DNA of 63,647 bases, the filler included, from Collodictyon triciliatum (lineage: Eukaryota), in assembly GCA_043381765.1 (NCBI GenBank). It is 17 parts of 17 records of this genome, joined end to end, with 100 filler letters (N's around TTAATTAATTAA, not from the genome) between each part and the next. Parts side by side here need not be neighbours in the genome. Positions count along the whole stretch, not along the records: positions 7,617 to 11,319 come from JBHJMP010006977.1; positions 11,420 to 15,120 come from JBHJMP010006978.1; positions 15,221 to 18,922 come from JBHJMP010006979.1; positions 19,023 to 22,722 come from JBHJMP010006980.1; positions 22,823 to 26,520 come from JBHJMP010006981.1; positions 26,621 to 30,315 come from JBHJMP010006982.1; positions 30,416 to 34,110 come from JBHJMP010006983.1; positions 34,211 to 37,907 come from JBHJMP010006984.1; 9 more parts are not named here. One strand, 5' to 3'. A program made the translations under genes and the position numbers. Positions 9,060 to 56,730 of the stretch are shown piece after piece; position 1 is the stretch's first letter, and each line of letters starts with the position of its first letter. Under the pieces are notes generated by a model that saw nothing but the letters and a program-made list of their open reading frames with translations, searched no databases and was not told the DNA's origin.

Positions 9060-11319
9060 CCACAATAAAACAGTTCGATTGAGATAGAACTCTCCAAAGG
9101 CGAAGAATGCTTTATTTGGCTTCTCGCCAAGAAATGGTCTGTTCATCCTTCTCAAATCGCACGACTATGTGCAGGCAAGTCCAAGTTGTGACGCAATTCC
9201 CAAAAGTTTTACGAAAAAGGACGTGACACCTCTGGTGGTTAACTTTGCCCTAGGATTCAGAGTCACTTTCCCTAAAAGAGACAACATGGCAGCCTTCATT
9301 AAAGACGAGCCCCCCTAACCTCCTCAATCACCAATACATTTCAACTAAAACTGTCATCATGTTTGAACAATTATCAAATATCTCGTTATAAGTCAACTGA
9401 ACGGATGTACTTCAAGCCTGCAGTAAACCTTTTTCTCCACTCAAATTCAACTGGACAAAGATTGCAAGAATATGAAAGAACAAAGTATCTCTTACCTTCC
9501 ACGAAAAAGAGGAAAAAGAGGAAACTGCTTACTCAGTCTCCATTCATGATAGACTGCGTTCATGCGAAGATACGCGCCCCCAAAGATTCCGACATTCCAC
9601 CGACTTTTTCAAAAAAAATAATAATGAAAAAAACAGCAGAGAAAGGCAAACCATGCAAAAAATCATTACTGTCAGACTAACCATCAATTAGGTAACCATC
9701 AAAAACCGAAATGTTACCACACACCTTGGGCTTCAAAACAACATTATTCAATCAAATCGCAGAGTCCTGGGCAAGTATTAATGAATCGCATGCGCGAAAC
9801 CAGCATAGAGCCCGAAAGCAAGCAGATTTGCTTTCCAACGCGGAAGAGATAAAATCGAGACAATCCGTGGGCATAGAACTCGAAGTCTCAACCAAGACAG
9901 TGGCTTATTAACAGACCTAAAATCAAGAAATGGGTCAAGACACTATTTCTTTCCTTTATTCGATTCAAAGTGGAGGGTTAAGAGAATATTGATGAATCGC
10001 CTGTCAATATTTCTGATATGTTGCTCCAGTTTCGCCAATCAACAGGGAGGGGATGATGTCAATAGCAGAGCCACTTGCTCGAAGAGGGGAAACATGCTTA
10101 GCTCCCAATATTACCGCCTCCCTCAAGCTGATGATTGAACATCAAACTCTCCTTCATATTATGGAGAGAATATCCATGAAAGAGAAGCACAAGCTACATA
10201 CCAATAGAATCGGAACATAGTCTAATGGCACCCAACAAACCTCATCCACTGGTCACTTTAGATATAACAACCCTTTAATCCACCCAAGACACTCACGCGT
10301 CAGTAAAGAGCGCGAAATAAATAAAAACGACGTCCTAGAAACCACACTTCAAGTAGTAAAGTTTCCAAAACTTTCGCTATCATACAGGGCTCTGTTTGAG
10401 AAGAGAGCGAGCTGCTCCAAGCCTCGGAAACTAAGGAAGGCTCTTCAAGCACTGTTTATGAAAACACTTAGATTGTGAAGCCAGCCTCCCTTACTCACCA
10501 GGAAAAAATCTCAAAAATAAGCTTTTATGAGGCGCAAATAAGCTCTGTTCAATCCACCATAATAGATATGCCACATGAGAATGAAGTTGCCACAGATAAG
10601 GCATCTCCAAAAACATGCTTCAATATTATAAACGAACCGCTAAATAAAGCGAACCGGAAAACAAAACAAAATGAAGCATATCAGCTCATCGCATAGATAA
10701 AGGTGAAAAACCAGAATCGGGGTTCACTGACGGCCAGCAAGTTGCATCTCATCCATCGCATATGCCCAAACTTCAAGGCACAACTCTGTGACAGTAGAAT
10801 CCCATCACCCCTGCCAAACACGCCCGAGCCGCTACTAGCGCGGTGGAAGGTTCTGTATGAAAACTGTGAAATGCGCGAGTCTACCCAACTACATGCTGGT
10901 ACAGGCCAACTTTGCTGAGATGGAGCAAAAGGCTTCCGTATCATCAAGTCGAGAGGAGGAAACAGCTCCTTCATCCTGCAACAAGTCACATTCCAAAAGG
11001 ATGGGAGCTTCGCACCGTCGAAAAATGCAACGATATTCCACTCCTCGAATGCAACCCCAAACACAGCTGTCCTGAACAACAAAGGAGAATGGTGCTCACT
11101 TCACCCAATCTCATACGGAGCACCGTCGCCATTTTTCTTTCGCCTGAAGAACCAAAGGCGGTCCATTACGCCTGACTCTCCGCAATTCTCGATGGCCATG
11201 GCGTATTCCAAGCTGTTTCGATATAAAATCATCAGTCCGAATCCCTACAAACCGGAGAAAATGAGTCGTTGGGCCGAAACTATAGGCATTATAGACCCGC
11301 CGATAGTCAAAAGCTGGAA
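9060..11319 (+). mobile_element. Degenerate, internally deleted L1/Tx1-like non-LTR retrotransposon
   Basis: Fragmented frames give FRVTFPKRDNMAAF and HAKIRAPKDSDIPPTF (ORF1-like), EEIKSRQSVGIELEVSTKTVAY (cf. IRSR..W.EEGE.STKYF linker of ORF2) and FSMAMAYSKL...RWAETIGI..KSW (start of zf-RVT region). No intact RT motifs seen. Confidence 0.55.
9948..9974 (-). mobile_element. Ultra-short LINE 3'-end insertion with degenerate TSD
   Basis: Reverse complement of CACTTTGAATCGAATAAAGGAAA, flanked by GGGTCAAGACACTATT and GGGTTAAGAGAATATT (13/16 identical). Confidence 0.65.
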
Positions 11320-11419
11320 NNNNNNNNNNNNNNNNNNNNNNNNNNNNNNNNNNNNNNNNNNNNTTAATTAATTAANNNNNNNNNNNNNNNNNNNNNNNNN
11401 NNNNNNNNNNNNNNNNNNN

Positions 11420-54296: not shown

Positions 54297-56730
54297 TCAC
54301 TGAGAATCGTTTGTTCCTTGGCTCGACGGTGGAGTCTCACTGTCGCTGGGTTTCGTCTTTGAGAAAAAGTGATTCATGGACTTCATTCCCCGTTTATCCA
54401 CTTTGGCTAGTTTCCGTTGGGACACACTGAGGCCCGGTGCCTTCTTTTCAGCCTTTTTGGAACGATCAAAGTCTGCATCATAATCGCTCTGACTTGATTG
54501 CGAGTGGTCGGAGGCTGCAGACGGCTGAAATGCGAAATCTATTTCATGGCCATTTTCAGCAAATTGAAAACAAAGTAATAGGCTAAATAGGTGTATTGTA
54601 ATGAAAAAGCCTCAAGGTAAACAGTGTGATATTTTTATGTGCATAGACCGGATATGAGTAGAGGTGTTATAGTGAGAGAACAAGGAGTGTCTCGAATATG
54701 ACTCTTTACCAGAGAGTTTCTTGGTCACTAAATGCTCCCTAATTGGTACGTTTGGGGATAAGGGCATGAGTGGTAGGCGATAAAGCAATATCGGAATCAT
54801 CGTACACATCATAAATGTATGAAAAACTGCTTGATTAAGGATAGGTACAATTCATATCGAATAAAGGAAAAAAAAAAAGAAAAAGAAAAGGATAGATACA
54901 ATTCATAATTTTACTCCAAAATTCAATTGAATAACCTGTATGTTTCTTCAATTATGGAGTATACGTCTTTTGGTAAATATTCCTTCAAAATCGACGCGCA
55001 GAATCGTGTGAGTGTGGCTGCATCATGAAGTACTTTAAGTTAATGCCGAAATGCATTTCATGGAAAAATTACGAGTATTCTTATTTTCTAATATGTATAT
55101 ATTCATTCACCAGCATCTTCACCCATCATGCACAATATTGAAAGGAATAAAAAAAAAAAGAGGAGTATATGTTCATTCGGTATGACTCTAGAAAAAGAAG
55201 CCTTACATTCATCACATTCTGGGTTAGCTCTTGAAGTGGCAAAGGACGAGGACCNNNNNNNNNNNNNNNNNNNNNNNNNNNNNNNNNNNNNNNNNNNNNN
55301 NNNNNNNNNNNNNNNNNNNNNNNNNNNNNNNNNNNNNNNNNNNNNNNNNNNNNNNNNNNNNNNNNNNNNNNNNNNNNNNNNNNNNNNNNNNNNNNNNNNN
55401 NNNNNNNNNNNNNNNNNNNNNNNNNNNNNNNNNNNNNNNNNNNNNNNNNNNNNNNNNNNNNNNNNNNNNNNNNNNNNNNNNNNNNNNNNNNNNNNNNNNN
55501 NNNNNNNNNNNNNNNNNNNNNNNNNNNNNNNNNNNNNNNNNNNNNNNNNNNNNNNNNNNNNNNNNNNNNNNNNNNNNNNNNNNNNNNNNNNNNNNNNNNN
55601 NNNNNNNNNNNNNNNNNNNNNNNNNNNNNNNNNNNNNNNNNNNNNNNNNNNNNNNNNNNNNNNNNNNNNNNNNNNNNNNNNNNNNNNNNNNNNNNNNNNN
55701 NNNNNNNNNNNNNNNNNNNNNNNNNNNNNNNNNNNNNNNNNNNNNNNNNNNNNNNNNNNNNNNNNNNNNNACACGTCTCGATAATGAATGGAAAATGAAA
55801 TTGAATTAACAACTTTTCACATCACAAATAAGTTCCAGGCGCAAATCTTTGCATTCTTTCAGTTTGTGCAATTTAGGTTCCTCAGAGGATGTCAAAATCT
55901 GCTCCATATCAATAAAAGCACCACCTTCACCTCTCTAGAAAGGATGTAAGTAGGTATAAAAGTTGCAAAAGAGTGGGTAAAGTAATAAAAGGAAACGAAA
56001 GTGCTGAGTACATCAACAAGCAGTCTTTATGCGGCATTACAACGAATACATGGTTAATATCACATACTCTTCCTTTACAAGAGTCAACCAATTTTGGTAT
56101 TATAAGAAAAAGCGGATCTATTTGTGATGCAAGATAAAGTGAACCATCTGCATGATAAAGAGGTTAGAATATCGCTTATCTGCTCATCACAGCTATAAGA
56201 GGTATTTCTAATGCCTGTAATTCACATCCTCAGATGACCTGGGTGTTAATTATGGGACATATAATATATGTTATTACAATTTTATTAGCATTAATAAAAT
56301 TATGATGGCAATATACAATACCTGCTATTGCGCTGTCATCGACGAACCATGATCGGTGTGGCTCTTTGGTAACCTGAATCTCATAGCAGAGACCCCCTTG
56401 AACAAGAAATTTTGCAGGTGACCCTGAGTATATTTTAATATCGAATACATAAGCATGTGTCTCCAAGTTTAAAAGTTAGTATAGAATGTTTGGCAGATTT
56501 AAGGAATCGGGTTAAAAAATTAGAATAAAGACAAAATAAAACAGAATTAAAATTAAAATTAAACAAAAATAAAAACATAATTAAAACAAAATAAAACCAG
56601 ATTATTTTTCTAAAAAAAGAAAAAAAAAGGAAGCTATAAACCTGTGCGTGGGTGCAACAAAGAAAGGAACTCAATGTGCTCTTCACCGTCTGCTGTTCCT
56701 TAACGTCCAAAACGAAGGTAGGTTCGTTCG
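54297..56730 (-). CDS. RNASEH2B: Ribonuclease H2 subunit B; multi-exon, spans an N gap, 5' end uncertain
   Basis: YEIQ..PHRSWFVDD, DGSLYLASQIDPLFLIIPKL and the C-terminal PIP box LAKVDKRGMKSMNHFF. Confidence 0.85.
54857..54887 (+). mobile_element. Ultra-short LINE 3'-end insertion with 20-bp TSD, intronic
   Basis: AAGGATAGGTACAATTCATA [TCGAATAAAGG plus A-rich tail] AAGGATAGATACAATTCATA (1 mismatch). Confidence 0.85.

What the first reader, a model, noticed from the sequence alone, without database searches (positions are those of the whole stretch)
9948..54907. Swarm of ultra-short LINE 3'-end insertions, some no longer than their own TSDs
Seen: the terminus (TTTGAA)TCGAATAAAGGAAAA occurs on six contigs, at 9948, 15701, 18206, 30549, 31066, about 38440 and 54857. 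Five copies are only about 17-31 bp. At 30549, 31066 and 54857 they sit between 17-20 bp direct repeats. Established: target-primed reverse transcription produces 5' truncation, an A-tail and a TSD. Inference: extreme abortive retrotransposition at about one event per 10 kb, implying a low-processivity RT or strong host restriction. These inserts would be invisible to repeat annotators and may seed A-rich microsatellites (see the GAAAA tail at 54868-54887).
Basis: partly seen in the sequence, partly recalled or inferred. Interest (0 to 1): 0.7.

Follow-up and report, generated by a model that had tools for sequence, protein, structure and literature searches.

The report
Tiny LINE stubs, fixed early stop
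A jumping gene (an L1-like LINE) in this unnamed eukaryote has left over two thousand copies of its tail end, most of them only about 18 bases plus a short A-run between duplicated target DNA, likely because copying aborts at an early checkpoint rather than because the enzyme is weak throughout.

Summary
All seven motif hits are in the window (chance 1.6). They are the 3' tip of an endonuclease/RT LINE (family A). Five are 24-31-base or shorter stubs and two are 276 and ≥456 bases. Genome-wide exact counts fall from 1830 (last 18 nt) to 782 (20 nt) and 551 (23 nt), yet 255 copies hold a word ~250 nt upstream. The stop rate is about 33% per base at 18-20 and 0.4% beyond 23, so uniformly low processivity is refuted. 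78 of 160 sampled ends have strict TSDs (control 1 of 478), mostly 16-18 bp. Stub 5' joins show only chance microhomology. Two other families (B, C) also leave mostly short inserts but stop elsewhere. No hairpin signal and no empty allele was found. Density is about 1 per 22 kb for A/B and 1 per 13 kb with C. Most likely mechanism (inferred): an early abort after the RNA stretch first held by ORF2p is copied. Main rival: RNA pre-trimmed to that stretch. The scan reported this same family before on other DNA of this genome (11 notes). It is a new variant of known 5' truncation.

The parts
9948..9974 (-). Family A stub, about 20 element nt + decayed A-tail (27 bp); decayed TSD at 9975-9990 and 9932-9947
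   Evidence: repeat 13/16
10741..11319 (+). Internal ORF2 piece of family A, runs to the contig end
   Evidence: 93% over 579 nt to the long copy in L248; ORF 10919-11371
15701..15724 (+). Family A stub, 18 element nt + A6; no convincing TSD (low-complexity flank)
18206..18481 (-). Family A 5'-truncated copy, 276 bases including ORF2 end, 93-nt 3' UTR, extra G and A6; 11-bp exact repeat at 18482-18492 and 18192-18202
   Evidence: (94% over 277 nt)
30548..30571 (-). Family A stub (24 bp, one extra A in the signal) between 17-bp repeats 30572-30588 and 30531-30547 (16/17); lies downstream of the last RNA-covered exon of a kinase gene, probably intronic
31049..31099 (+). Family A stub 31066-31082 (11 element nt + A6 = 17 bp) with a perfect 17-bp TSD
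30967..31126 (-). 160-nt intron of a protein-kinase gene that contains the 31066 stub in antisense; skipped in a contig of run X1
   Evidence: joint 30966-31127, ends CT..AC, one contig
32203..32288 (+).
38008..38463 (+). Family A 3' fragment of at least 448 element nt + A-tail; 5' end off the contig
   Evidence: 94% over 456 nt
54837..54907 (+). Family A stub 54857-54887 (11-12 element nt + 20-nt G-interrupted A-tail) with a 20-bp TSD (19/20)
55095..55178 (+). Decayed family C stub (about 55109-55164) between 14-bp repeats 55095-55108 and 55165-55178 (13/14)
   Evidence: (86-88% over 50 nt)

Best explanation
These are 5'-truncated copies of an L1-like LINE, and most of them likely arise because target-primed reverse transcription aborts at an early, template-fixed point 18-19 bases into the element. 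Shown: the motif is the end of a 93-nt 3' UTR behind an endonuclease/RT/zinc-finger ORF2; inserts carry 16-18-bp TSDs, a T|A target step and a 7-9-base A-run; about two thirds of copies that reach 18 nt stop by 22 nt, while those that pass run on for hundreds of bases; the stubs' 5' joins have no more microhomology than chance. Inferred steps: ORF2p nicks the bottom strand at T|A, primes near the start of the poly(A), and nicks the top strand about 17 nt away at or before initiation. It copies the roughly 25 nt of RNA it already holds. It then often fails the move into processive elongation and switches to second-strand synthesis or is joined directly by host repair. Odds: identity as TPRT-made LINE stubs 0.95; two-phase (abort, then processive) behaviour 0.85; this particular cause of the stop about 0.45-0.5.
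For: Genome counts 1830/782/551/255 give 0.32-0.33 stops per base at 18-20, 0.07-0.09 at 20-23 and 0.004 at 23-262, for 2-4% assumed decay per base. In the sample, 64 of 153 family A ends match for exactly 18-19 nt and 121 of 153 for 22 nt or less; the subset not chosen by the 21-mer (bar two loci) gives 41 of 108. TSDs: 78 of 160 against 1 of 478 shuffled pairs; 50 of 78 are 16-18 bp. Microhomology in 47 stubs without extra bases: mean 0.72 against 0.72 expected, P=0.50; 12 of 59 have 1-4 extra bases. The stop follows the template, not the distance from the tail: copies with an extra G are not shifted shorter (2/6/8 against 14/24/15 at 17/18/19; one-sided p=0.95), and tail length does not correlate with element length (rho -0.21, p=0.16, n=45). 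Family B shares the last 16 nt, but only 9 of 30 stop by 22 nt against 79 of 111 for A (p=8e-5). [quoted passage not shown] It holds a 15-nt single-stranded RNA stretch beside the active site (PMC10830416).
Against: No experiment separates an enzyme abort from a pre-shortened RNA. Direct joins and extra bases fit run-off from an RNA end at least as well; in human L1 direct joining is described for full-length inserts and microhomology for truncated ones (PMC4245944). A pure protein-footprint ruler would predict one stop for all families, but family C stops at 19-27, 33-36 and 42-43 nt (genome 331 to 253 across 42-44), so the model needs family-specific geometry or sequence effects. The extra-G test is small (16 against 53 copies), and tails change length after insertion. 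Family C inserts of 31-60 nt show a slight microhomology excess (0.96 against 0.60, P=0.025, n=26). No empty allele was seen, no intact master was found, and 82 of 160 A/B ends failed the strict TSD test.
Confidence: 0.5

Rival explanations
1. The RNA is shortened first. A host nuclease or 5'-to-3' decay trims the LINE RNP back to the 18-19 nt plus poly(A) that protein protects, and the RT simply runs off the end of this stub template.
For: One-base-sharp 5' ends, chance-level microhomology and extra bases in 12 of 59 stubs resemble full-length joins (PMC4245944). Three families in the same host all give mostly short inserts. The last 16 nt are shared between A and B, as a protein-binding site might be.
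Against: B shares the tip but has a much weaker early stop (9 of 30 against 79 of 111). The bases around the A (18|19) and C (33, 42|43) hot spots share no obvious cleavage motif. No small-RNA or raw-read data were available; only contigs were laid.
Confidence: 0.3
2. An RNA or cDNA hairpin stalls the RT at position 18-19: a terminal 5-bp stem whose 5' base is position 18, or a helix starting at position 20-21.
For: The minimum-energy fold of the last 34 nt is a 5-bp hairpin beginning at position 18. Mean pairing probability rises at positions 21-24 across 31 copies. A review cites stem-loops as a driver of Alu 5' truncation (PMC4859970, passage).
Against: The hairpin is worth only -0.3 kcal/mol and its centroid is unpaired. 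Z-scores of five fragments lie between -0.45 and +0.99. R2 RT is reported not to be slowed by secondary structure (PMC13000458, passage).
Confidence: 0.1
3. A separate tiny SINE or short master locus produces an 18-nt RNA that the LINE mobilises in trans.
For: Near-uniform 5' end in 64 of 153 copies.
Against: Lengths form a nested series from 11 nt to over 1,400 nt of one sequence. Extra-G end variants occur in both stubs (16 of 64) and long copies (1 of 13; several more), so more than one source gives the stop. There is no promoter-bearing head and no cap-like G excess among one-base extras.
Confidence: 0.05
4. Insertions were made at ordinary lengths; selection in a compact, short-intron genome and collapse of long repeats in a fragmented assembly leave only the short ones visible.
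For: 14,576 contigs. Long copies often end at contig edges or N gaps. My sample from longer contigs shows 11 of 153 copies at 88 nt or more, while genome counts imply about 14% reach 262 nt. A stub sits harmlessly in a 160-nt intron.
Against: Neither process can tell 18-19 from 20-22 nt, where the count drops 57% in two bases. The 3' ends of long copies stay visible at contig ends. Net added length is not enriched for multiples of three (27/19/20, n=66).
Confidence: 0.05
5. The RT has uniformly low processivity, giving a geometric length distribution.
For: Median family A match length is 18 nt.
Against: The per-base stop rate falls from about 0.33 to about 0.004. 123 RT-region matches exist, and copies of 1.2-1.4 kb or more are present.
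Confidence: 0.03

Closest known systems
5'-truncated insertions of human LINE-1 made by target-primed reverse transcription (PMC7617806, PMC4859970, PMC4245944)
   Same: Endonuclease + RT + C-terminal zinc-finger ORF2 (best solved-structure match human ORF2p, E 6.7e-45); AATAAA directly before the A-tail; TSD within the 7-20-nt range with a sharp peak; T|A target step; 5' truncation.
   Different: The typical insert keeps 18-19 element bases, whereas human copies are described as mostly under 1.5 kb with no consensus truncation point (PMC4859970 passages). TSD peak is 16-18 bp against 13-15 for L1-clade elements (PMC4245944). Tails are 7-9 A. Truncated joins lack the microhomology excess reported for truncated human L1.
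L1 and Nimb-2 inserts in chicken DT40 cells (PMC4245944)
   Same: Sharp, long TSD peak and many directly joined 5' ends, read there as unprocessed overhangs.
   Different: There direct joining goes with long or full-length inserts (62% full length for L1); here it goes with the shortest ones.
Plant-type L1 ORF2 proteins with zf-RVT
   Same: Nearest database relatives of the RT region; same domain order.
   Different: Only 28-36% identical; the search covered only proteins of 1312-3745 aa, so closer relatives may exist.
SINEs sharing a LINE 3' end (recalled; review PMC3747384 seen only as a search listing)
   Same: Short, A-tailed, TSD-flanked, high copy number, LINE 3' end.
   Different: No tRNA/7SL/5S head and no fixed full length; the stubs are nested pieces of the LINE itself.

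Membership tests
L1-type (APE) non-LTR retrotransposon | Reverse transcriptase ORF upstream of the motif in the same element | tested here: met
   L037 carries RT frames and ends in the motif; Pfam RVT_1 E 8.9e-10 and 4.2e-13
L1-type (APE) non-LTR retrotransposon | N-terminal apurinic-type endonuclease in ORF2 | tested here: met
   Pfam Exo_endo_phos E 1.9e-16 on the sister-group ORF2 in L229. The family A copy L238 aligns to it at 66% over 2,235 nt including this region and shows the motifs in broken frames; A's own domain was not scanned.
L1-type (APE) non-LTR retrotransposon | C-terminal CCHC zinc finger | tested here: met
   C-x2-C-x8-H-x4-C read directly in family A and family C; no profile scan
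L1-type (APE) non-LTR retrotransposon | Poly(A) tail after AATAAA and TSD of 7-20 bp | tested here: met
   78 of 160 against 1 of 478 controls; mode 16-18 bp
L1-type (APE) non-LTR retrotransposon | TT|AAAA-like endonuclease target | tested here: inconclusive
   -2 T 67%, -1 T 76%, +1 A 97%, +2 A 56% (n=66); looser than TT|AAAA, and the +1/-1 values are partly set by how the TSD start is defined
L1-type (APE) non-LTR retrotransposon | ORF1 and a complete 5' end | not tested
   No intact full-length copy among the fetched stretches; ORF1 was not sought
L1 clade in the strict sense (versus Tx1 and others) | Placement in an RT phylogeny | not tested
   No tree built; only best hits (human L1 157 bits against R2 73 bits; plant L1-type proteins)
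SINE | Own 5' head with an internal Pol III promoter and a defined full length | tested here: not met
   Between the TSDs lies only LINE 3' sequence plus 0-4 extra bases in nearly all cases

The most novel reading that the evidence does not exclude
LINE reverse transcription has an abortive-initiation checkpoint, like RNA polymerase. This genome records it at single-base resolution in thousands of events: about two thirds of reactions end after the first 25 or so nucleotides by microhomology-free joining. Each family has its own ladder of stops, and the host may enforce it as a restriction mechanism that turns retrotransposition into 40-bp scars carrying a portable AATAAA signal.
Probability: 0.3. 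Interest if true: 0.75.

Novelty: new variant of a known kind. Interest (0 to 1): 0.5.

Why it matters
Why LINE insertions are 5'-truncated is an open question; a review passage says no consensus truncation point is known for L1 (PMC4859970). Here one position accounts for roughly half of all stops among copies that reach it. Sister families with different stops serve as built-in controls, so premature second-strand switching and RNA trimming become directly testable with a 30-100-nt template. In practice, 3,400 or more exact-match ends of three families (2271 + 1029, with B partly inside the first count) add about 40-60 bp each, including in introns. They would be read as plain indels, and they show that LINE activity can be badly undercounted from long copies. 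The chemistry itself is ordinary TPRT.

Tried and rejected
RNA structure as the cause: five fragments folded no better than shuffles, and pairing profiles did not mark the stops clearly. A fixed total cDNA length counted from the tail: not supported. A 9-nt periodicity in family C stops (24, 33, 42) was noticed but not tested, and it blurs when subfamilies are separated. In-frame exonic survival: no multiple-of-three excess. Empty alleles: four runs were laid on 30520-31285; two had no contig there, and X2's one 151-nt contig (30943-31093) carries the filled allele, so there is no evidence either way. No RNA holder is on record; X1 is only guessed to be RNA, though it skips two GT-AG introns. 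X1 contigs cover family A from the RT to the 3' end (481 laid) and not the 1604-2331 flank, but contig depth cannot give expression level, strand or RNA ends. No intact master: the long open frames in C5561 and C4759 are bridged by N gaps. The link between the 74-78% RT group and the family C tail is only by adjacency in L236 and L229. Family B was not traced to an RT; all 30 loci are 77 nt or shorter. Nine literature searches found no report of a LINE family with a modal insert under 20 nt; the library lacks most subscription papers and the searches were narrow. The sperm preprint (10.1101/2025.10.25.684559, passages) required inserts of 250 bp or more and does not bear on this. No supplements were opened.
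Full report
Setting. The window is 17 pieces of about 3.7 kb joined by N-linkers, 37% GC, from a 75.4-Mb eukaryotic assembly of 14,576 contigs. The host has short spliceosomal introns. I did not identify it.

Observation. The 11-mer occurs 7 times at up to one mismatch, against 1.59 expected. TSDs are perfect at 31066 (17/17), near-perfect at 54857 (19/20) and 30548 (16/17), decayed at 9948 (13/16) and not convincing at 15701. The copies at 18206 and 38008-38463 are 276 and at least 456 bases. 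Twenty stretches picked by contig number alone hold 7 A/B-type ends in 158,375 bases, so this window (7 in 61,244) is above average.

What the motif ends. Extending long copies upstream gave a 93-nt 3' UTR, an ORF2 C-terminus with C-x2-C-x8-H-x4-C, and an RT (Pfam). An RT fragment finds 123 places, falling into a group at about 85-100% identity (family A), one at 74-78% and a few near 40%. The 74-78% group's ORF2 in L229 has an Exo_endo_phos domain and an RT. Its best solved-structure match is human L1 ORF2p (E 6.7e-45; R2 1.6e-19). The nearest database proteins in a search limited to longer proteins are 28-36% identical, mostly plant L1-type. No intact master was seen among the 20 stretches fetched for this. 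Contigs of a probable RNA run cover family A from the RT to the tail but not the neighbouring host DNA, which fits transcription without proving it.

TSD test. About 1.17 Mb of distinct sequence was scanned. It came from stretches chosen by the 15-mer, the 21-mer and the family C 17-mer, 20 unselected stretches and the window; loci chosen by long queries (L031-060, L149-248) were left out. Of 160 A/B ends, 78 had a strict TSD, against 1 of 478 shuffled pairs; 50 of 78 were 16-18 bp. The other 82 include decayed copies, copies at contig ends and low-complexity flanks, and were not resolved one by one. The target reads mostly T|A. The median tail is 7 and the median insert 26 nt (n=66). A motif-free scan for A-runs between exact repeats returned 73 rows. 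Most were these families, along with tandem-repeat noise and two A-only inserts with 17-bp TSDs.

Length distribution. Of 153 family A ends (7 B-like ends removed), 64 match the element for exactly 18-19 nt, 121 for 22 or fewer and 11 for 88 or more. The sample leans toward copies of 17 nt or more and toward long contigs, so I used whole-genome counts: 1830 for the last 18 nt, 782 for 20, 551 for 23, and 255 for an 18-mer about 245-262 nt upstream. The sample reproduces the first two ratios (47/111 and 32/111) but under-counts long copies. Allowing 2-4% decay per base, the stop rate is 0.32-0.33 per base at 18-20, 0.07-0.09 at 20-23 and about 0.004 from 23 to 262. The last count may include internal fragments not joined to a 3' end. 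This is a two-phase process, not a uniformly weak enzyme.

Other families. Family B shares the last 16 nt but differs upstream (112 exact 18-mers). Its 30 fetched loci run from 18 to 77 nt, and 9 stop by 22 nt, against 79 of 111 for A (p=8e-5). Family C has a different end (1029 exact 17-mers) and a homologous ORF2 C-terminus (36% over 118 aa). 61 of 104 family C ends have TSDs (control 0 of 307), 54 of the 61 are 46 nt or shorter, and stops cluster at 19-27, 32-36 and 42-43. The genome count drops from 331 to 253 across 42-44, a milder hot spot of about 0.1 per base. Very short inserts are therefore common to all three families, and the sharp 18-19 stop belongs to A.

Junctions. Among 59 family A inserts of 22 nt or less with exact TSD cores, 12 have 1-4 extra bases. 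The other 47 show mean microhomology 0.72, against 0.72 from permuted targets. Longer A inserts lean higher but are too few (n=9 and n=3). C inserts of 31-60 nt show a slight excess (P=0.025, uncorrected). For human L1, microhomology is described as typical of truncated copies and direct joining of full-length ones (PMC4245944, parts 1-3 of 5 read). Extra-G variants stop at the same template position, and tail length is not tied to element length. Folding gives no signal above shuffles.

Mechanism. Shown: LINE origin, TPRT hallmarks, two-phase survival, family-specific stops, chance-level microhomology. From the literature (passages only): human ORF2p nicks the top strand during first-strand synthesis, and a premature switch is proposed to cause truncation (PMC7617806); it holds about 15 nt of single-stranded template beside the active site (PMC10830416); in vitro R2 truncations had no preferred position (PMC13000458). 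Inferred: with only 7-9 A copied, the RNA first held by the enzyme would be about the size of the stub, and failure to move beyond it would give the peak (about 0.45-0.5). The close rival is trimming of the RNA to the same protected stretch before copying (0.3). Hairpin stalling (0.1), a tiny SINE (0.05), selection or assembly bias (0.05) and uniform low processivity (0.03) fit worse.

Consequences. The 31066 stub lies antisense in a 160-nt intron that one X1 contig skips. A freshwater metagenome contig carries the same filled allele; no empty allele was seen. Long interrupted tails occur in 4 of 78 and 4 of 61 inserts, so microsatellite seeding is occasional.

Novelty. It works like ordinary L1 TPRT and meets the tested L1-type features; strict clade membership was not tested by a tree. 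The modal length under 20 nt, the one-base-sharp stop and the direct joins did not appear in nine searches of the open library, which is limited evidence. Earlier notes of this scan, consulted after the analysis, describe the same family on other pieces of this genome (11 notes, 9 distinct ones seen); they are not independent support. Verdict: real, a new variant of a known kind, interest 0.5.

Noticed in passing
window 32203-32288 and 55095-55178; 1029 exact 17-mers in G000: Family C: a sister LINE with a different 3' end that also leaves short TSD-flanked stubs, with stop clusters near 24, 33 and 42 nt.
   Followed up: yes
L179-L208; 112 exact 18-mers in G000: Family B shares the last 16 nt with A but has a different AT-rich upstream part; none of 30 loci exceeds 77 nt, and its RT was not identified.
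   Followed up: partly
L138 about 7551 (+), L116 about 4113 (+): Inserts of only A12 and G+A12 between perfect 17-bp TSDs, the shortest possible TPRT products.
   Followed up: no
window 49385-53076 and 56970-60657: Two gene-dense, intronless pieces, each with a Pox_A32-type packaging ATPase (E 1.7e-14 and 8.6e-07), next to ORFs that look by eye like capsid and primase-helicase genes; likely Polinton-like or virophage-like elements. No LINE stubs were found in them.
   Followed up: partly
window 8980-10462: Diverged repeat (67-70%) matching DNA upstream of the family A ORF2 in L238 and a stretch of L230; the 9948 stub lies inside it. It may be an old LINE 5' region or another element.
   Followed up: no
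L123 about 5069 (+): One insert has 18 non-element bases between the TSD and a 20-nt stub; possibly a template switch or copying from a host transcript that ends in an older stub.
   Followed up: no
L129 about 4186 (-), L296 about 5370 (+): Family C stubs whose TSD is the A-rich tail of an older A/B-type end, i.e. nested insertions into earlier stubs.
   Followed up: no
L037 about 1012 and L051: Two long family A copies lack the same roughly 700-nt part of ORF2 between the RT and the zinc finger, at slightly different joins.
   Followed up: no
L238 6643-9999 (-): An open 1,118-aa Ty3/gypsy-like pol frame (read by eye) beside a family A LINE.
   Followed up: no
window 11420-13100 and 15221-17600: Two pieces are GC-richer (45-53%), with different simple repeats from the rest; they may come from another organism or a distinct compartment.
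   Followed up: no
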